DNA from: Nannocystis pusilla
GTDB taxonomy: Bacteria; Myxococcota_A; Polyangia; Nannocystales; Nannocystaceae
Assembly: GCF_049060185.1 (NCBI RefSeq)
Contig: NZ_JBMEQO010000002.1
Length of the DNA: 64,000 nt
Direction: 5' to 3' (one strand)
Both the position numbers and the translations under genes were made by a program. The notes beneath the pieces are model-generated. The model was not told where the DNA came from, ran no database searches, and was given only the letters and a program-made list of their open reading frames with translations. Shown here piece by piece: positions 1 through 64,000 of the stretch (the stretch's first letter is position 1; each line of letters begins with the position of its first letter).

Positions 1-1033
1 AGCACGTCGCGGGGATAGCCGCCGGTAGCGGTGAGGATCGGCCGCACTGCCGCGACCGGATCCTGGCCGAAGATTTGCTCGGGCTTTTCGAGCCGGCAGG
101 CGACGAGCTTGTACATCTTGTCGAGCCCGGCGACGAAGTCGTTGCCGTCGCGGTCGTGGATCTTGACCATCGGCAGGGTGAGCGGCTCACGGGCGAACAC
201 TGAGCCGAGCTGGGCAGTGCGGAAGCGCAGCCACACAGGGAAGGTGTAGATGACATGGCACGAGGGCAGGCGCAAGAAGTCGCCGTAGGCGACAAAGAGC
301 GCCTCGAGCGAGTTCTCGATCGACTCGCGTTGCGACTCGTTCATCGCGTCGATCTTCTCGAGGCCGTCGGCGATGACGATGAAGCGGTCGGCGCGGCTTC
401 CGACGGCTTTTGGATCCGCTTCAGCGAGCGGCCGATCTCTTCGTAGCACTCGCGCACGAAGTCCTGGAAGCGCTTGCGTAGGGCCTCTTCGATCTCGTCG
501 TGGATCGTGCGGTTGTTGCGGAGCTCGAGCATCAGGTTGAGGCCGTAGAGCTCGAACTTGGGCTGGAGGTGCGCGCTGGTCGGCAGGAAGCGGCGGATGC
601 TGTCGAAGAACTGGCGCAGGTAGGTCTCGCCGGGCGGAGTCGCGGTCTTCTCGAGCTTGTCGGCCTCGCGGGCGACGCAATACGTGATGGCGCCGAGGAC
701 GTCGGTGACCGAGACCGGGAAGAAGCGGTGGATGTACTCCTCGCAATTGATATAGAGGACGTAACCAGAGTCGGGAGGCGGATTGCTGTTGATCTGGCCG
801 GCCAGGCGCAAGAGCTCGGAGGTCTTGCCGGTGCCCGGAAAGCCGGTGAAGAGCTGGCAAGTCGGCGATTCGGCGTCGAAGATCGTGCGCCGGAGGGAAT
901 CGATGCAGGCTTGCTCGCCGCGGACCGAGGGATCCTTGTCGAACGGCACGTAGAGCGGTGAACCCGCTTCCAGCGGCTTCTGCGGGTCGCACTGCGCGAT
1001 CAGGCGCCGGATGATGCTGCGGTCGACGGTCAT
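1..1033 (-). CDS. P-loop NTPase (AAA/STAND-like ATPase), C-terminal portion runs off the window start; apparent frameshift near 425
   Basis: ORF 341..1033 has Walker A GFPGTGKTSELL. After a frame switch near 420-430 the protein continues plausibly (Walker B-like DRFIVIADGLEKID ... GGYPRDVL) to position 1. The residues after the switch in the original frame are low-complexity SSSSPTASRRSTR. Confidence 0.5.
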
Positions 1034-1084
1034 GGGGCGGCTGGACGGTACGATGGAAAGCGCGCGGACGCCAATCGCGCCATG

Positions 1085-2430
1085 TCAGCCGCGGGCGGCG
1101 GGGTCGGGGCCGAGCATGCGGACGAGGCGGTCGGTCCAGGCGCCGGGCAGGTCCTTCGGGACATGTTCTTCGGGGTCGAAGGCGGCGGCGCCGATCTGGT
1201 CGAACACGGCGGGGAGCGGCTGCGGGTGGAGGGCGAGCTCGAGCAGGACGACGCCGGCGCTGAAGAGGTCGGAAGCCGGGGTGGCGCGGGCGGCCGGGCC
1301 GGGGCTGCGCAGCTCGGGGGCGAGGTAGCGCAGGGTGCCGGCGTGGCCGCTGCCGGAGCGCGGGTCGGCGAGGGCGAGGCCGAAGTCGGCGAGGGCCACG
1401 GGCGAGCCCTCGCGGGCCTCGCGGACGAGGATGTTGGCGGGCTTGATGTCGCGGTGGACGGCGCCGGCGGCGTGCACGGCCCGCAGGGCGCTGACGATCT
1501 GGGCGCCGACCCGCGGCAGGTCGGCGGGGCCGAGCAGGCGCTTGCGCACGGCGACGCGCAGGTTGCCGCCGCGGCACAGGCCGAGAGCGACGAAGCGGTG
1601 CGCGGGCTGGACGTCGAGGAGGGCGATGACGTGCGGGCTGCGGACGCGGGCGAGGGTGCGGGCCTCGGCGAAGAAGCGGGCGCTGACGAGCCGGCCGTCG
1701 CTGCCCTCGGCGACGAGGCGCTTGATGGCGACGTCGCGGCCGACGCGGCGGTCGAAGGCCTGATAGACGACGGCGTGGCGGCCGCGGCCGAGGGGACGGC
1801 CGAGCTCGTAGCGGTCGACGCCGAGGCCGGCGACGAGCTCGGTGGCGTCGAGGCCCTCGAGCAGGGCGAGGCCGCGGCTGGCGTGGGCGCCCCCGCGACC
1901 GAGGCGGCGCTGGGCGGTGCTCCAGCCGCGCAGGGCCCGGGCGTGGTCGATGTCGACCGCGAGCAGGGCCTCGAAGTGACGCAGGGCGCCGAGCGGGTCG
2001 CCGCGATCGAGGAGGGTGTCGCCGAGGAGGAGGTTGGCGGCCGCGTAGGCGCCGGTCGGCTGCCAGCGGCTGTCCTCGACCTCGGGCAAGGCGAGGGCGG
2101 CGCGCGAGCTCGACACCGAGGTCGGGGGCGAGGGCGTCGCACAGCTCGCGCGCGAGGACGAGGACGAGGTCCGGCCGCGGCCGCAGGCGCAGGTGGGCGG
2201 CCAGGCTGACGAGCGCGCCGCGGACGTAGCCGGCGTGGCTGAGGTCGCGGATCTGGCGATCGATCTCCGGGGCCGGGGCGCCCTCGACGAGCCGGCGCGC
2301 GAGCGCGGCGATGCCCGGCAGCTCGCGCGGCAGCTCGGCGCCCTCGGAGAGGCGCGAGAGGACGGCCCGCAACTGGTGGTCGAGGGCTGGATCGGCGCGG
2401 ATGTCGCCGCGGAGGGGCTCGATCGGCATG
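1085..2430 (-). CDS. Ser/Thr protein kinase with N-terminal helical/TPR-like region; frameshift near 2103
   Basis: Hanks kinase motifs read from the minus strand: GRPLGRGRHAVVYQA, VAIKRL, HRDIKPANILV, DFGLA, TLRYLAPE. The stop was verified by hand as ...GPDPAARG*. The plausible N-terminus MPIEPLRGDIRADPALDHQL... begins at 2430 but is one base out of frame with the kinase domain around 2100. Confidence 0.65.
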
Positions 2431-2439
2431 GAGGCGAGA

Positions 2440-2696
2440 GGGTCGTGAGGCAGGTGAGGGCGCGGGCGAAAAGGGGCGAGCGGAACGAGAGAGCTGGCGC
2501 GAGCGGAGCGACGAGCGGAATCAGAGGAGCTGGCGCGAGCGGCGGACGGAGCGGGAGCGGAGCGAGGAGATGGCGCGAGCGGTGGGCAGGGCGGGAGCGG
2601 AGCGGCGAGCTGACGCGAGCGGCGGGCGGGGCGAGCAGGCGGGCGACGTCGGAGGGGTGGATGAGCGGCGGGCGGGGCGAGCAGGCGGAGCGGGTC
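2440..2696. repeat. GA-rich imperfect tandem repeats (~42-46 bp units, e.g. gagctggcgcgagcgg... and gcggcgggcggggcgagcaggcgg x2) in kinase promoter region
   Basis: Direct inspection shows repeated gagctggcgcgagcgg / agcgggagcggagcg blocks and a duplicated 24-mer at ~2625 and ~2668. Confidence 0.5.
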
Positions 2697-61799: not shown

Positions 61800-61814
61800 A
61801 CGGTGATGGGCTGG

Positions 61815-61965
61815 CGTTAGGGCATGTCCTGCGGGACATGCTCGATCAGACTTGTTCATGGAGGGCGATGACCGCCGGAGACGGCGGCCGCAGCCGCATG
61901 GCTTCCGGGACATGCTCGTTCGGACAGGCCTCCGTGCAGCCGCGCCTCGGGTCATGTCCGCGAGG
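61815..61965. repeat. cluster of five GGGCATGTCC / GGGACATGCT / GGACAGG / GTCATGTCC motif copies in convergent intergenic region
   Basis: Copies at 61819-61828, 61832-61841, 61907-61916, 61922-61929 and 61952-61960, between the amidohydrolase stop (61799) and the stop of the 61966.. minus gene. Confidence 0.7.
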
Positions 61966-63816
61966 TCACGGGTCGAGGACGACGACGTAGCCGTCGCGGC
62001 CGCCCTGGCTGGTCTTGGCGCCCTCGCCGAGGTCGATGGCATTATGTAATTGCCGACGGCGGCCACGGAGCCCGCGGCGGACGCGGTGACGTGGGCCCCG
62101 TACTGCTCCTGCGGGCCGCCGAGGCGCTTGCTCCACCCGGGCTGGCCGCCGGGGCTGAATTGGCGACGAACACGTCGCGGTATTCGGCCGCGGTCAGCGG
62201 GCCGCTGCCGAGGTCGCAGGTGTTGCGGAAGGTGCCGATGGTGACGAGGTTGTCGAGGCCGTCGACGGCGACGTTCTCGGCGATCGAGCCGCCCTCGCAC
62301 AGCTCGCGGCTCCACAGGTGGTCGCCGTTGCCGTCGAGCTGGGCGAGGTAGCTGACGACGATGTCGCCCTGGAGCGGGTCGCCGCCGAAGTCGAGGACGC
62401 CGCTGGTGCCGCCGGTGAGGGCGACGCGGCCCTTGCTGTCGACCGCGAGGCTGCCGACGGTCTGGCTGCCGGCGTCGCCCCAGCGCTTGCCCCACAGGGT
62501 GGCGCCGGCCGGGTCGAACTTGATGAGGAAGATGTCCTCGGAGCCGGCGCTGGTGAGCGGGCCCGTGCCGGGGTCGAAGCTGCCGCGCAGGCCGCCGCTG
62601 ACGAAGACGTTGCCAGCGGGGTCGGGGGCGATGCCGATGCCGACCTGCCACTCGGGGTCACCGAAGCCGCGGCTCCACAGGTGGGCGCCGGCGCCGGTGA
62701 ATTTGGCGACGAACACGTCGTTGCCGCCGGCGGAGACGAGGGGGCGCCGCCGAGAGGGAGCGAGCCGTAGAAGGCGCCGGTGACGAGGATGTTGCCGCTG
62801 GCGTCGAGCGCCAGATCGAGCGGGGTCACGTCCTCGCCGGCGATGAACGACTCGCTCCACACGTGCTGGCCGTCGCCGTCGAGGCGGGCGAGGAAGAGGG
62901 CGGTCTTCAGCGTGGGGTTTTCGAGGGGACCGCCGCCGAAGTCGATGTCGCCGTTGAAGATCCCGCTGAGCACGATGTCGCCGTCCTCGGCGATGGCGAG
63001 GCCGTATTCCGGACCGCCCTGGTAGTCGCCGTCGCCGAAGCGCTTGCTCCACAGGACGGCGCCGTCGGGCGCGAACTTGGCGAGGAAGACGTCGTAGCCG
63101 GCGTGGACGAGCAGGCCGTCGCCGAAGTCGATGTCGCCGTTGCCCCACGCGGCGACCACGACGTTGCCGGCGCCATCGAAGGCGACCCGCTCGCCCTCGT
63201 CGTCGCCGGCCTTGCCGAAGGTGAGGCCCCAGGCGAACTCGCCGTCGCCCTGGCACGGGTCGATGCCGTCGCAGCTCTCGTCGCCCGGCTCGTCGCAGGT
63301 GTCGGGCGCGGGCACGACCTCGCCGACGCACGGGCCCCAGAGCTCGTCCCTGCCGCACTCTTGCTGCCCGGCGACGCACTCGCCGACGTCGAGGGTGCCG
63401 TCCGGGCCGCTGTAACAGCTCTGGATGTCCCCGGGGACACATTCGCCGACGACGCCGGTGTCGGTGGTATCGGTGGCGTCGGTGGTGGAGGTGGCGTCGG
63501 TGGTGGAGGTGGTTTCGCTGGTGGTGGTCGTGGTGGTGTCGAGAGTCGTGGTGTCGAGGGTCGTGGGATCGACGGTGGGATCGCCGGTGGTGGGATCGAC
63601 CGCGGTGGTGTTTTCGCCCGTCGTGGTGGTGGTGAGATCGGGACCGGTCTCGGTGCTCGGGCCGGTGGTCGTGGGCGTGGTCGATGGATCTGTGGCGACA
63701 GTCGTGGTCGTCGGACCGCTGGTGTCGGCCGGATCGGTGTCGGTCGACGCCACCGGCCCTCCAGGACAGGCGGCGAGCACGACAGGGGAGAGGCGCAGTA
63801 GAGGAGTCCAGTTCAT
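61966..63816 (-). CDS. secreted lipoprotein with poly-Thr linker, Cys-rich module and SBBP-type beta-propeller repeats; frameshifts ~62160, ~62760
   Basis: MNWTPLLRLSPVVLAAC lipobox. Repeated units ...GD.DFGGGPL....D.FLAKF.PDGA.LWSKRFG... (x6+), typical of the myxobacterial SBBP repeat. Three frames must be joined. Confidence 0.65.
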
Positions 63817-64000
63817 GGCGAGGCTATAACCCGCCGAGATCGACGATGTTGCTAGGGCAAATATGCGTTCGATTCGTCGATCGTCTGCGCGCATTTTGGA
63901 GCGCGGGTCCCTTCGCATTCGCCGGGGTGCCAGCGACGATTGCGGGCACTCCACGCCAATACAGGGGGTCCTGTGATTCGTGAATGTCGCGCGATCAGGC

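What the first reader, a model, noticed from the sequence alone, without database searches (positions are those of the whole stretch)
1..64000. Massively over-represented 10-bp perfect palindrome GGACATGTCC and near-variants dispersed through the window
The exact GGACATGTCC occurs at least 9 times: 22123, 22628, 24225, 24318, 24366, 28717, 36389, 40546 and 41852. About 40 further one- or two-mismatch copies also occur (GGGCATGTCC, GGACAGGTCC, GACATGTC, GGACATGCC). Examples are 1159, 8448, 10160-10195, 12901-12920, 21530, 22098-22115, 23378, 23886/23901, 24513, 26213, 26545, 34490-34590, 36290-36345, 36403, 36724-36744, 37545-37570, 38766-38793, 41867, 44751-44766, 51217-51236, 56114/56128, 57060-57129, 60445/60540 and 61819-61960. 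For a ~72% GC genome a specific 10-mer of this composition is expected about 0.05 times in 64 kb, so this is enrichment of two to three orders of magnitude. Copies frequently occur in pairs or arrays, and several are embedded in longer hairpins. I cannot place the element in any repeat family I know. It could be a miniature dispersed repeat, the binding site of a global DNA-binding protein, a methylation or restriction-related target, or an RNA structural element.
Basis: seen in the sequence. Interest (0 to 1): 0.9.

Follow-up and report, generated by a model that had tools for sequence, protein, structure and literature searches.

The report
Gene-end palindrome family of Nannocystis
The over-represented 10-mer is the visible part of a strictly spaced 14-24 bp palindrome (TGTCC-N4-GGACA) that myxobacteria of the genus Nannocystis carry by the thousand just after the ends of their genes; it is an apparently undescribed counterpart of the REP, TRIT and uptake-sequence repeats of other bacteria, and its function has not been tested.

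Summary
In detail: 9 exact GGACATGTCC against 0.05-0.15 expected. But the 10-mer is only the junction of a larger dyad. The conserved unit is TGTCC-N4-GGACA, with a spacer that is always 4 nt (15 exact copies in the window against 0.04 expected). It is usually extended to GGACATGTCC-N4-GGACATGTCC and chained in 14-bp register.

The window is Nannocystis pusilla. Perfect 24-mers occur almost only in Nannocystis and some Nannocystaceae genomes, so this is not a local duplication.

Of 102 perfect pairs, 90 lie after stop codons (median about 13 nt), 61 of them between convergent genes. Excluding the pairs used as bait, 57% of convergent, 21% of co-directional and 12% of divergent intergenic regions carry one. 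Gene ends without the motif show no hairpin excess.

The arms show no covariation, no G·U bias, no U-tract and no strand polarity, and the loops have no consensus. Intragenic copies are 50-160 times over chance and arose in place inside conserved protein motifs.

Best reading (confidence 0.4): a lineage-specific, bidirectional gene-end signal read sequence-specifically by a symmetric factor. It resembles TRIT and REP but is not a member of either family. Rivals are an uptake-sequence-like drive, a REP/RAYT mobile element, a plain terminator and a topoisomerase site. It is a new variant of a known kind.

The parts
1145..1168 (.). Intragenic pair GGGCAGGTCCttcgGGACATGTTC (3/20 mismatches)
   Evidence: inside the ORF 1085-2116(-)
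2696..2806 (.). 14-bp tandem array x8 of a non-palindromic variant unit (GGGCAGGTCC + GAAA/GAGA), ending 19 nt from the stop of 2800-3798(-)
   Evidence: It does not fold (z = -1.1). It shows that arrays grow by 14-bp slippage.
10158..10195 (.). 3-unit array with an exact inner dyad TGTCCgtcgGGACA, at the 3' end of ORF 9883-10209(+)
12888..12935 (.). Perfect 21-bp-arm hairpin built around the dyad ATACATGTCCtcctGGACATGTAT (12900-12923), 10 nt after the stop of 12305-12889(+) and 50 nt before the stop of 12974-13789(-)
   Evidence: folds at -45 kcal/mol, z = -8.4
16143..16180 (.). 3-unit array 33 nt downstream of the stop of 16214-17014(-)
21516..21553 (.). Intragenic 3-unit array in the TPR gene 21314-23371(-)
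22095..22146 (.). Intragenic array in the TPR gene containing the exact 10-mer at 22123 and the exact inner dyad at 22100 (read as GHV)
22614..22651 (.). Intragenic exact 10-mer at 22628 (read as DMS) with degenerate neighbours, in the TPR gene
23886..23909 (.). Pair inside the conserved C-terminal domain of the radical SAM gene (orthologs read DMSSATCPEG here)
24211..24389 (.). Three repeats of ..GATGTCGtgagGGACATGTCC.. (exact 10-mers at 24225, 24318, 24366) in the hypervariable linker of the radical SAM gene 23377-25620(-); each is translated in frame as GHVPHD(I/T)S
   Evidence: TRF periods of 48 and 93 nt
24499..24522 (.). Pair with exact inner dyad TGTCCtcggGGACA in the same linker (read as EHVPEDSI)
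26206..26229 (.). Intragenic pair (5/20 mismatches, one in the inner dyad) in the second radical SAM gene 25822-27513(+)
26542..26565 (.). Intragenic pair with exact inner dyad TGTCCtgggGGACA in the second radical SAM gene 25822-27513(+)
28675..28740 (.). 5-unit array with the exact 10-mer at 28717, at the stop of a weakly scoring ORF (28358-28690(+))
34489..34586 (.). Three dyads (34489, 34526, 34563) between the convergent genes 33383-34462(+) and 34789-35463(-, TetR)
   Evidence: The inner dyads are conserved in N. bainbridge with different loops.
36289..36412 (.). Three dyads (36289, 36322, 36389, the last with an exact 10-mer) filling the convergent region between the Coq4-like gene (stop near 36269) and 36414-37091(-)
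   Evidence: In the orthologous alignments the arms are conserved, the loops are changed, and whole elements are gained or lost.
37545..37568 (.). Intragenic exact inner dyad in the Prok-RING gene. It coincides with the conserved peptide FPEDVPKDTS and is made by a rare GAT codon plus Val where other taxa have Ile.
40532..40555 (.). Pair with the exact 10-mer at 40546, overlapping the TGA of ORF 39952-40533(+), convergent with 40811-41863(-)
   Evidence: the orthologous element in N. exedens is degenerate
41852..41875 (.). Pair GGACATGTCCattcAGACATGTCT, 22 nt after the stop of 41898-42851(-), a gene absent from N. exedens
44747..44770 (.). Exact inner dyad TGTCCccggGGACA inside ORF 44233-45057(-)
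51215..51238 (.). One-mismatch inner dyad TGTCTgttcGGACA in an intergenic region
56114..56137 (.). Pair TGACATGTCCgaagAGACATGTCG between 54384-55889(+) and 56217-56957(+)
57060..57125 (.). 5-unit array (GGACATGCC variants), 102 nt after the stop of 56217-56957(+)
   Evidence: (two strong hairpins, z = -5.1)
60442..60465 (.). Pair with an exact inner dyad, 5 nt after the stop of 59909-60436(+)
61820..61973 (.). Cluster of arrays (61820-61857, 61908-61931, 61950-61973) between the convergent genes 61444-61800(+) and 62042-62716(-)
63421..63444 (.). Exact inner dyad TGTCCccggGGACA; its gene context was not resolved

Best explanation
GGACATGTCC is the junction of a larger dyad-symmetric element. 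The unit is TGTCC-N4-GGACA: two 5-7 bp half-sites (CATGTCC / GGACATG) in inverted orientation, separated by exactly 4 bases with no consensus. In the best copies it is extended outward to GGACATGTCC-N4-GGACATGTCC. Because each 10-mer is its own reverse complement, the element is often chained head to tail in 14-bp register by slippage.

It is a family specific to Nannocystis and part of the Nannocystaceae, extrapolated at a few thousand copies per roughly 12-Mb genome. Its main home is the first few tens of bases after a stop codon, above all the short spacer between convergent genes.

I take it to be this lineage's gene-end mark. It would be a bidirectional signal for ending or 3'-end-protecting transcripts, doing the job that canonical hairpin-plus-U-tract terminators do elsewhere. 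It would be read through its sequence by a symmetric (dimeric) lineage-specific factor, on duplex DNA or on the RNA stem, and not merely through its ability to fold.

Shown: the anatomy, the taxonomic range, the position relative to genes, the pattern of conservation, and growth by local duplication. Inferred: the termination or 3'-end function, and the existence of the factor.
For: Anatomy.
- Spacer 4 gives 249 exact TGTCC-N(x)-GGACA in 0.87 Mb, against 0-4 for every other spacer from 0 to 10. The window alone has 15 against 0.04 expected.
- Inner half-sites are 71-98% consensus (G7 98%), outer ones 66-82%.
- 77% of CATGTCC half-sites have an N4 partner with at most 3/7 mismatches, against 9% by chance.

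Range.
- 100 of 103 genome stretches with the perfect 24-mer are from Nannocystis or Nannocystaceae.
- The motif is present in a 68%-identity ortholog locus and absent from a distant one.

Position.
- Of 102 perfect pairs, 61 are in convergent and 29 in co-directional intergenic regions, 7 are coding and 2 are in divergent regions. The median distance to the nearest stop is about 13 nt.
- Without the bait pairs, 57% of convergent, 21% of co-directional and 12% of divergent regions and 3% of coding controls hold a pair with at most 6/20 mismatches.
- In co-directional regions of at least 150 bp, 71% of elements lie in the quarter next to the upstream stop.

No alternative terminators.
- Hairpin-plus-T-tract sites are no more frequent than in shuffles (7 against 5.3).
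- Convergent regions without the motif show no hairpin excess (median z = -0.5), while those with it do (z = -3.2).

Sequence reading rather than pairing.
- There is no excess complementarity at any of the 10 stem pairs in a leave-one-pair-out test (z from -3.1 to +1.5).
- G·U roughly equals A·C.
- Conservation is position-specific, and the loops have no consensus although their length is fixed.
- In orthologous comparisons the inner arms are 0.89 identical, against 0.82 for outer arms, 0.81 for flanks and 0.78 for loops (alignments).

Precedent.
- TRIT in Mycobacterium is a conserved palindrome at gene termini, for which a sequence-reading factor was proposed (PMC3152330).
Against: - Intragenic copies are far above chance. 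In gene interiors there are 53 exact dyads against 0.33 expected under codon shuffling, and 25 exact 10-mers against 0.5.
- At least three intragenic copies arose in place, without an indel, inside conserved protein motifs: a methyltransferase (LKPGG-type motif to TCPGGHV), a pyrophosphatase (NYGFIP to NYGHVP) and the Prok-RING protein (DIP.DT to DVP.DT). A gene-end signal gives no reason to select such copies.
- There is no U-tract and no asymmetry with respect to the direction of transcription, even where transcription is one-way.
- The non-palindromic array at 2696-2806 does not fold.
- No transcript data and no candidate factor are available, so the function is inferred from position alone.
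- The gene positions rest on my own codon-usage gene caller, which makes some errors.
Confidence: 0.4

Rival explanations
1. An uptake-sequence-like or biased-repair 'molecular drive' motif, in the manner of DUS/USS or HIP1. A cellular machine that prefers DNA carrying the dyad (in uptake, recombination or repair) enriches it everywhere in the genome. It piles up where sequence is least constrained, just after genes, as inverted DUS pairs do in Neisseria terminators.
For: - Strong intragenic over-representation.
- In-place origin inside conserved protein motifs in several reading frames.
- Position-specific conservation without covariation.
- No polarity.
- Taxon restriction.
- Vertical conservation at orthologous sites.
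Against: - The functional unit is an obligate dyad with fixed spacing, and lone half-sites or lone 10-mers are hardly above chance. In known uptake systems single asymmetric motifs are abundant.
- Exact copies do not dominate over variants (9 exact, 8 one-mismatch, about 30 excess two-mismatch).
- Elements sit close to the upstream stop codon rather than spreading over the free part of the intergenic region.
- They are about 9 times denser in convergent than in divergent regions.
- Uptake specificity is unknown in myxobacteria.
Confidence: 0.2
2. Plain factor-independent hairpins. These would be ordinary bidirectional terminators or 3' mRNA stabilisers that share a sequence only because they spread by local duplication and common descent.
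For: - Good copies fold into 10-12 bp stems with tetraloops (z from -3.5 to -8).
- They are placed after stop codons and between convergent genes.
- Perfect pairs have 1-2 extra complementary flanking bases (62 against 31 and 51 against 32).
- Local duplications are evident.
Against: - There are no compensatory changes at any stem pair, and deviations are not repaired.
- G·U equals A·C.
- There is no U-tract.
- The strict 4-nt loop and the position-specific conservation of particular bases are not what stability alone gives.
- Intragenic enrichment.
- The most conserved part is only a 5-bp stem.
Confidence: 0.12
3. A REP/REPIN-like non-autonomous mobile element, spread by a RAYT-type (Y1/HUH) transposase that recognises the hairpin.
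For: - A small palindrome in very high copy number, mostly extragenic and at gene ends.
- Whole-element presence or absence differences between species.
- Clusters of elements in some intergenic regions.
- In-frame 24-nt copies in genes recall the Rickettsia palindromic elements.
Against: - There is no GTAG or CGTC tag and no other conserved end (REP definition in PMC3733652).
- The loops of the 102 perfect copies are almost all different, so these are not copies of a master element.
- Only about 6-14 perfect copies occur per genome, with a broad spectrum of mismatches.
- The intragenic copies examined arose without insertion.
- The inner part is better conserved than the ends.
- No recurrent neighbouring protein family and no Y1-transposase-like ORF was found in 0.87 Mb. 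This is a weak negative, because the query sequences were recalled from memory.
Confidence: 0.1
4. A DNA-level site for a topology or nucleoid protein, for example a preferred type IIA topoisomerase (gyrase) site. Its two cuts are staggered by 4 bp, which would match the N4 centre. The sites would lie where positive supercoils build up behind and between converging polymerases, as E. coli BIME-2 REPs do.
For: - Dyad symmetry with a sequence-free 4-bp centre and strict spacing.
- No covariation and no polarity.
- Concentration between convergent genes.
- Sites inside genes are tolerated.
- The gyrase-REP link is from general knowledge, not tested here.
Against: - There is no 10.5-bp AT/GC periodicity in the 90 bp on either side, which a wrapped gyrase site should show.
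- Sitting close to the upstream stop in co-directional regions is not predicted.
- There is no experimental or comparative link to any protein.
Confidence: 0.1
5. A target of a DNA methyltransferase or restriction-modification system centred on CATG/ACATGT.
For: The motif is a palindrome containing CATG. Over-represented palindromes linked to methyltransferases exist (HIP1; general knowledge).
Against: - The selected unit is the N4 dyad, and CATG is only the junction between successive dyads.
- CATG and ACATGT as such are not over-represented (ratios 1.0 and 1.4).
- The gene-end placement is unexplained.
- Restriction targets are normally avoided, not enriched.
Confidence: 0.03

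Closest known systems
TRIT, the 'Tuberculosis Rho-independent terminator' motif of Mycobacterium (Gardner et al. 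2011, PMC3152330)
   Same: Both are lineage-restricted palindromes in a high-GC genome poor in canonical terminators. Both are conserved in sequence, lie close to stop codons and are mostly bidirectional. Both account for most of the structured gene termini. A sequence-reading factor was proposed for TRIT too.
   Different: The sequence and the taxon are unrelated. TRIT has 147 copies in M. tuberculosis, against an extrapolated few thousand here. TRIT sits around position -8 inside the coding sequence, whereas these elements lie mostly 1-40 nt after the stop. TRIT was reported with conservation of both sequence and structure, whereas here no covariation is found. The chaining in 14-bp register and the strong intragenic enrichment were not described for TRIT.
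REP / BIME / REPIN elements of Enterobacteria and Pseudomonas, and SMAG of Stenotrophomonas
   Same: Both are 20-40 bp imperfect palindromes in hundreds to thousands of copies. Both are extragenic, often at 3' ends of genes, and occur singly, in pairs or in clusters. Proposed roles are in termination, mRNA stability and supercoiling (PMC3733652).
   Different: There is no GTAG or CGTC tag, no RAYT has been found so far, and the loops are unrelated between copies. The inner part is better conserved than the ends, and the intragenic copies arose in place. In the terms of that paper this would be an 'untagged' palindromic repeat.
DNA uptake sequences (Neisseria DUS, Pasteurellaceae USS), including inverted DUS pairs in terminators
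   Same: Both are family-specific short motifs, over-represented by orders of magnitude in genes (in several frames, arising in place) and between genes. Both are frequent as hairpin-forming pairs after genes, and both show position-specific conservation without covariation (general knowledge).
   Different: Here the dyad with fixed spacing is obligatory and single motifs are not enriched. Exact copies do not dominate. No link to uptake is known.
HIP1 (GCGATCGC) of cyanobacteria
   Same: Both are lineage-specific palindromes over-represented in genes and between genes, of unknown function, and not mobile (general knowledge).
   Different: HIP1 is a simple 8-mer spread fairly evenly. The element here is a bipartite dyad, roughly 7-15 times denser outside genes and tied to gene ends (densities derived; gene-end placement).
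Rickettsia palindromic elements (RPE)
   Same: Both are palindromic repeats found in frame inside protein-coding genes. Here the 24-nt pairs read GHVxxDMS, and the radical SAM linker is built from them.
   Different: RPEs are 100-150 bp insertions. The intragenic copies examined here are 10-24 nt and arose by substitution without a change in length.

Membership tests
REP / REPIN | Short (20-40 bp) imperfect palindrome in high copy number, mainly extragenic | tested here: met
   A 24-bp dyad. Outside the bait pairs, about one exact inner dyad per 5.5 kb. 90 of 102 perfect pairs are intergenic.
REP / REPIN | Conserved GTAG or CGTC tetranucleotide tag at one end | tested here: not met
   The flanks show only a weak, symmetric R/Y preference, and no tag on either side. 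Definition from PMC3733652.
REP / REPIN | Cognate RAYT (Y1/HUH transposase) gene flanked by the repeats | tested here: inconclusive
   No recurrent protein family lies next to the pairs. There was no Y1-like hit in 0.87 Mb, using queries recalled from memory. Whole genomes could not be scanned.
REP / REPIN | Copies descend from master sequences (near-identical copies including the internal spacer) | tested here: not met
   The loops of the 102 perfect pairs are almost all different, and the commonest occurs 6 times. The mismatch spectrum is broad.
Canonical intrinsic (Rho-independent) terminator | GC-rich hairpin shortly after the stop codon | tested here: met
   Good copies fold with z from -3.5 to -8. 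The median distance to a stop is about 13 nt.
Canonical intrinsic (Rho-independent) terminator | U-tract directly 3' of the stem on the transcribed strand | tested here: not met
   In 79 one-way contexts, the 8 nt downstream hold 1.56 T on average and the 8 nt upstream hold 1.63 A. Only 4 of 79 have at least 4 T. Consensus terminators are not above shuffles.
Structured RNA element (selected hairpin) | Compensatory changes keep the stem paired, and G·U is tolerated on the transcribed strand | tested here: not met
   In the leave-one-pair-out test, z runs from -3.1 to +1.5 for all 10 pairs and compensated deviations are at chance. G·U 26 against A·C 20. No Rfam family matches.
TRIT (Mycobacterium) | Conserved palindromic motif at gene termini that accounts for most structured termini | tested here: met
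   This holds as an analogy only. Convergent regions with the motif have z = -3.2, and those without it z = -0.5.
TRIT (Mycobacterium) | Match to the TRIT sequence/structure model, which is restricted to Mycobacterium | not tested
   The model is not available here. The paper reports TRIT only in Mycobacterium. The consensus here is a different sequence, so I do not claim membership.
DNA uptake sequence (DUS/USS) | Taxon-specific short motif over-represented in coding and non-coding DNA, arising in place | tested here: met
DNA uptake sequence (DUS/USS) | A single motif copy is the unit, so lone copies are abundant | tested here: not met
   59 of 62 exact 10-mers outside perfect pairs have a neighbour at plus or minus 14 bp with at most 5 mismatches. 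Half-sites occur almost only as N4 dyads.
DNA uptake sequence (DUS/USS) | Preferential uptake of motif-bearing DNA | not testable with these tools
   This needs transformation or uptake assays.
Transcription-factor operator | Sites lie in promoter regions upstream of regulated genes | tested here: not met
   2 of 102 perfect pairs are in divergent regions. In co-directional regions the elements lie next to the upstream stop, 63-1252 bp from the next start.
HIP1-type iterated palindrome | A simple palindrome spread through genes and spacers without positional preference | tested here: not met
   The motif is a bipartite dyad. It is strongly concentrated after stop codons and between convergent genes.

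The most novel reading that the evidence does not exclude
Nannocystis ends its genes with a sequence-specific, protein-read signal. An as yet unknown lineage-specific dimeric factor would bind the TGTCC-N4-GGACA dyad, as duplex DNA or as an RNA stem, and stop or cap transcripts in both directions. This would be a bacterial counterpart of factor-bound terminator elements such as mTERF or Reb1/TTF-I sites, replacing the canonical hairpin-plus-U-tract terminator in this high-GC lineage. An equally novel alternative is a third, dyad-type DNA uptake or self-recognition sequence system; I give that about 0.1.
Probability: 0.25. Interest if true: 0.85.

Novelty: new variant of a known kind. Interest (0 to 1): 0.6.

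Why it matters
How high-GC bacteria that lack canonical terminators end their transcripts is an open question. TRIT in mycobacteria raised it without answering it.

Nannocystis offers a much larger and cleaner natural data set. There are thousands of dyads, and they occupy more than half of the convergent gene ends. The spacing is strict, the conservation is position-specific and there is no covariation. Together these point to a trans-acting reader that could be fished out with a 24-mer.

The family is also a practical annotation aid. It marks gene and operon ends in genomes rich in natural-product clusters, and it flags frameshifted genes. It gives parts for engineering, as candidate terminators or insulators for myxobacterial expression.

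The element also visibly reshapes proteins. Conserved motifs have been recoded, and a linker is built from GHVPxDxS repeats. That makes it a case study of DNA-level pressure overriding protein sequence.

Tried and rejected
- Protein motif. Rejected because the 10-mer is read in all three frames (GHV, DMS, TCP).
- Local segmental duplication. Rejected by the genus-wide scan.
- Transcription-factor operator. Rejected by position.
- Known RNA family. No Rfam match at gathering thresholds.
- Canonical terminators. Not enriched.
- RNA-level selection. Three tests all came out negative: wobble asymmetry, covariation and sense-strand polarity.
- Palindromy within a unit, as for a dimer sitting on each 10-mer. 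Compensation within a unit (114) is rarer than between units (232), and both are near chance.
- Pairs made by simple tandem duplication. Only weak direct covariation (z about 2 at three positions), and the loop rarely equals the next spacer.
- Gyrase wrapping signal. No 10.5-bp periodicity.
- RAYT or another recurrent neighbouring gene. None in the sampled loci.
- Phage origin. One isolated perfect pair in all of IMG/VR.
- Literature. Seven searches in all; those for the 10-mer, the dyad, Nannocystis repeats and REPs in myxobacteria found no description of the element, and two retrieved the TRIT and REP papers.
- The look-up of encoding contigs on a window protein found nothing at first. The species identity came later, from the radical SAM product.

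Full report
**1. The observation**

Dinucleotide shuffles give a mean of 0.05 and a Markov-3 simulation gives 0.15.

With at most one mismatch there are 17 copies against 1.6-3.0 expected. With at most two there are 82 against 35 expected. So the core claim holds, although about half of the two-mismatch 'copies' are chance.

Hits with at most three mismatches lie in strict register: 40 pairs at 14 bp (1.1 simulated), 18 at 28 bp and 8 at 42 bp. The arrays are listed.

**2. Source and range**

The window is about 72% G+C. A radical SAM product encoded in it is 100% identical to a Nannocystis pusilla protein on a 12.69-Mb contig. Other proteins are 76-94% identical to those of other Nannocystis species.

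I scanned one genome per species across 185,579 bacterial and archaeal species for the perfect GGACATGTCC-N4-GGACATGTCC. This found 103 stretches. All but three are from Nannocystis (pusilla, exedens, punicea, bainbridge, radixulma, RBIL2 and MAGs), one Nannocystaceae MAG and one 'Myxococcales' MAG. The three exceptions have 47-61% G+C.

The motif is also present in a metagenomic locus whose Prok-RING ortholog is 68% identical. It is absent from a more distant 60%-GC locus. The element is therefore genome-wide and lineage-wide, not a local duplication.

These 100 loci (8 kb each), the window and three orthologous loci (L104, L106, L008) gave 0.87 Mb of Nannocystis sequence for statistics. I called genes with my own codon-usage log-odds caller. 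Stop positions from it are reliable. Starts and weak genes are less so, and orthology corrected several calls in the window.

**3. Anatomy**

Conservation along the 24-mer is not uniform. The loop-proximal halves (T6 87%, G7 98%, T8 71%, C9 87%, C10 81%) are better kept than the outer halves (G1 69%, G2 66%, A3 69%, C4 82%, A5 69%).

The spacing is strict. Exact TGTCC-N(x)-GGACA occurs 249 times with x = 4 and 0-4 times for every other x from 0 to 10. The window alone has 15 against 0.04 expected, more than the nine 10-mers.

The four spacer bases show no consensus. The commonest loop occurs 6 times among 102 perfect pairs.

Lone half-sites are not enriched. 77% of CATGTCC half-sites have an N4 partner with at most 3/7 mismatches, against 9% by chance. 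In addition, 59 of 62 exact 10-mers outside perfect pairs have a recognisable neighbour at plus or minus 14 bp.

Because each 10-mer is its own reverse complement, a pair is both an inverted and a direct repeat. This explains the 14-bp chains. The array at 2696-2806 consists of eight copies of one mutated, non-palindromic unit, so it grew by slippage.

Larger local duplications that carry a pair also occur. There are 48/93-nt periods in the window at 24138-24390, and periods of roughly 80-150 nt in other loci.

**4. Position**

The 102 perfect pairs fall as follows:

| Context | Pairs |
|---|---|
| Between convergent genes | 61 |
| Between co-directional genes | 29 |
| Inside called genes | 7 |
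| At locus edges | 3 |
| Between divergent genes | 2 |

Convergent spacers make up only 2.5% of the sequence. The median distance to the nearest stop codon is about 13 nt.

Leaving out the bait pairs, the share of regions holding a pair with at most 6/20 mismatches is:

| Region type | Share with a pair |
|---|---|
| Convergent | 57% |
| Co-directional | 21% |
| Divergent | 12% |
| Length-matched coding controls | 3% |

In co-directional spacers of at least 150 bp, 71% of elements lie in the quarter next to the upstream stop. The figure is still 62% after excluding 100 bp before the next start.

Consensus hairpin-plus-T-tract terminators are no more frequent than in shuffles. Convergent spacers without the motif show no excess of stable hairpins (median z = -0.5, 11% below -2). 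Those with a good motif do (median z = -3.2, 78% below -2). In this genus, a structured gene end is nearly always one that carries the motif.

**5. What is selected**

Good copies fold into strong hairpins as RNA, but the statistics do not show selection for pairing.

- In a leave-one-pair-out design, none of the ten stem pairs shows more complementarity than when the 3' partners are shuffled among elements (z from -3.1 to +1.5). Deviations from the consensus are compensated at chance level. For example, the variable pair 8/17 has 23 compensated cases against 23.6 expected.
- With the inner dyad held exact, the outer arms do not covary either.
- G·U and A·C oppositions are equal, at 26 against 20 in one-way transcribed contexts.
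- Where transcription is one-way, the element and its flanks are symmetric. The 8 nt downstream hold 1.56 T on average, and the 8 nt upstream hold 1.63 A.
- Only the perfect pairs have one or two extra complementary flanking bases: 62 against 31 and 51 against 32.
- Between species, the inner arms are 0.89 identical, against 0.82 for outer arms, 0.81 for flanks and 0.78 for loops.
- In the orthologous spacers of the window (34.5 kb and 36.3 kb), the arms persist while the loops change, and whole elements come and go.

Base-by-base conservation, strict spacing, a free centre and no covariation are together the signature of a sequence read by a symmetric partner. They could also be the signature of a drive towards a consensus. 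They are not the signature of a free-sequence hairpin.

**6. Copies inside genes**

In the interiors of confidently called genes (614 kb), counts against codon-shuffled expectation are:

| Pattern | Observed | Expected |
|---|---|---|
| Exact dyads | 53 | 0.33 |
| Exact 10-mers | 25 | 0.5 |
| Pairs with at most 4/20 mismatches | 59 | 0.08 |

The copies are read in different frames.

Three cases show that intragenic copies arose in place.

- A perfect pair lies on the LKPGG-type motif of a class I methyltransferase. Nannocystis orthologs read RTCPGGHVLF where distant homologs read RLAPGGTLAF, with no indel.
- An exact 10-mer encodes GHVP in the pyrophosphatase motif NYGFIP, again with no indel.
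- The dyad in the window's Prok-RING gene (37545) sits on the conserved FP.D(I/V)P.DT motif. It is made by a rare GAT codon plus Val where other taxa have Ile.

In the window, five of the nine exact 10-mers are in two genes:

- The TPR gene 21314-23371(-) holds two.
- The linker of the radical SAM gene 23377-25620(-) holds three. That linker is hypervariable among Nannocystis strains and is built from GHVPxDxS repeats, which are in-frame translations of the element.

**7. Interpretation**

Position argues for a function tied to the end of the upstream gene, acting in both directions. The sequence statistics argue that the element is read by its sequence.

I therefore favour a lineage-specific gene-end signal read by a symmetric factor, either on duplex DNA or on the RNA stem (confidence 0.4). 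The termination or 3'-end function and the factor itself are inferences. I have no transcript data and no candidate protein.

The main obstacle is the intragenic enrichment and its in-place origin, which a gene-end signal does not predict.

- An uptake-sequence-like or repair-type drive (0.2) explains the intragenic copies. It fits poorly with the obligate dyad, with the lack of dominance of exact copies, and with the placement next to the upstream stop.
- A plain hairpin terminator (0.12) is contradicted by the missing covariation, the missing U-tract and the fixed loop length.
- A REP/RAYT mobile element (0.1) is contradicted by the missing tag, the unrelated loops, the in-place intragenic origin and the better-conserved centre. 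No RAYT was found, although whole genomes could not be searched.
- A topoisomerase or nucleoid site (0.1) matches the 4-bp centre and the convergent location, but the flanks show no wrapping periodicity.
- A methylation or restriction target at CATG (0.03) does not fit the anatomy.

**8. Comparison with what is known**

The closest analogue is TRIT of Mycobacterium. It is a conserved palindrome at gene termini in a high-GC genome poor in canonical terminators, mostly bidirectional. It accounts for most of the structured termini, and a sequence-reading factor was suggested for it (PMC3152330). The present element is a different sequence in a different phylum. It is about twenty times more numerous, lies after rather than across the stop codon, and shows no covariation.

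It resembles REP, BIME and SMAG elements in size, copy number and location, but fails the tag test and has no known RAYT. In the terms of PMC3733652 it would be an 'untagged' palindromic repeat.

It shares the in-place intragenic evolution and taxon specificity of DUS/USS and HIP1, but not their single-motif unit or their even spread.

Seven literature searches were run; none found a description of this element in Nannocystis or other myxobacteria, and two of them retrieved only the TRIT and REP papers. It has no Rfam family. I file it as a new variant of a known kind, namely lineage-specific palindromic repeats at gene ends, and not as a member of any named family.

**9. Limits**

- Gene positions outside the window rest on a home-made caller.
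- The 100 loci were chosen because they hold a perfect pair. The bait pairs were excluded wherever that could bias a count, but clustering of elements near the baits may inflate densities.
- Copy numbers per genome are extrapolations: about 2,000-3,000 exact dyads, and 6-14 perfect 24-mers per genome.
- The between-species conservation test conditions on one partner being near the consensus. The outer arms serve as an internal control for that bias.

Noticed in passing
window 23377-25620 (- strand): The radical SAM gene needs two frame changes (around 24100-24150 and around 23731) to match its roughly 700-aa orthologs. The public annotation (587 aa, 100% identical) follows the shifted frame. 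This is either a pseudogene or indel errors in the assembly.
   Followed up: partly
window 35599-36269 (+ strand): The Coq4-like gene matches the 225-aa N. exedens ortholog in two different frames (+1 for 35599-35871, +3 for 35727-36269). This is a second apparent frameshift in the same window, which hints at assembly indels.
   Followed up: partly
window 24138-24522 and orthologs P0128-P0137: The linker of the radical SAM protein (about aa 365-520) varies greatly in length among Nannocystis strains. It consists of a variable number of GHVPxDxS repeats, each the in-frame reading of one dyad element.
   Followed up: yes
window 2477-2806: The 5' region upstream of gene 1085-2116(-) is packed with tandem repeats (periods 36, 40, 17 and 14). 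It ends in eight copies of CGAAAGGGCAGGTC, a non-folding variant of the 14-bp unit.
   Followed up: partly
window 12888-12935: There is a perfect inverted repeat with 21-bp arms around a dyad (RNA fold -45 kcal/mol) between two convergent genes. It is the longest palindrome seen in the window.
   Followed up: partly
window 34462-34789 and 41898-42851, against L104 (N. exedens): The window lacks a methyltransferase gene and a 139-aa gene that N. exedens has between the orthologs of 33383-34462 and the TetR gene. It has an extra gene, 41898-42851(-), that N. exedens lacks, and a dyad pair directly follows that gene's stop.
   Followed up: no
window 30115-31121: Gene 29814-31124(+) is highly repetitive coding sequence, with 12/24/36/72-nt periods and up to 27 copies. 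It has only sub-threshold Pfam matches.
   Followed up: no
the element itself: GGACATGTCC-N4-GGACATGTCC is formally a perfect p53 response element (two RRRCWWGYYY decamers, spacer 0-13), and its most conserved bases are the same C and G. I treat this as coincidence, and no p53-like protein was looked for.
   Followed up: no
L111 8919-8954 (IMG/VR contig, 66% G+C): This is the only viral contig with a perfect pair. The pair lies in a 36-bp perfect palindrome (CCTCTC-GGACATGTCC-TCTC-GGACATGTCC-GAGAGG), with no other copies in 9 kb.
   Followed up: partly
L045 2985-3904 and L086 (orthologous loci): A stretch of about 3.3 kb without a confident gene call carries six or more copies of the non-palindromic variant pair GGACCTGTCCccagGGACCTGTCC at intervals of 81-96 nt and upwards. 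Part of it is conserved between two species.
   Followed up: no
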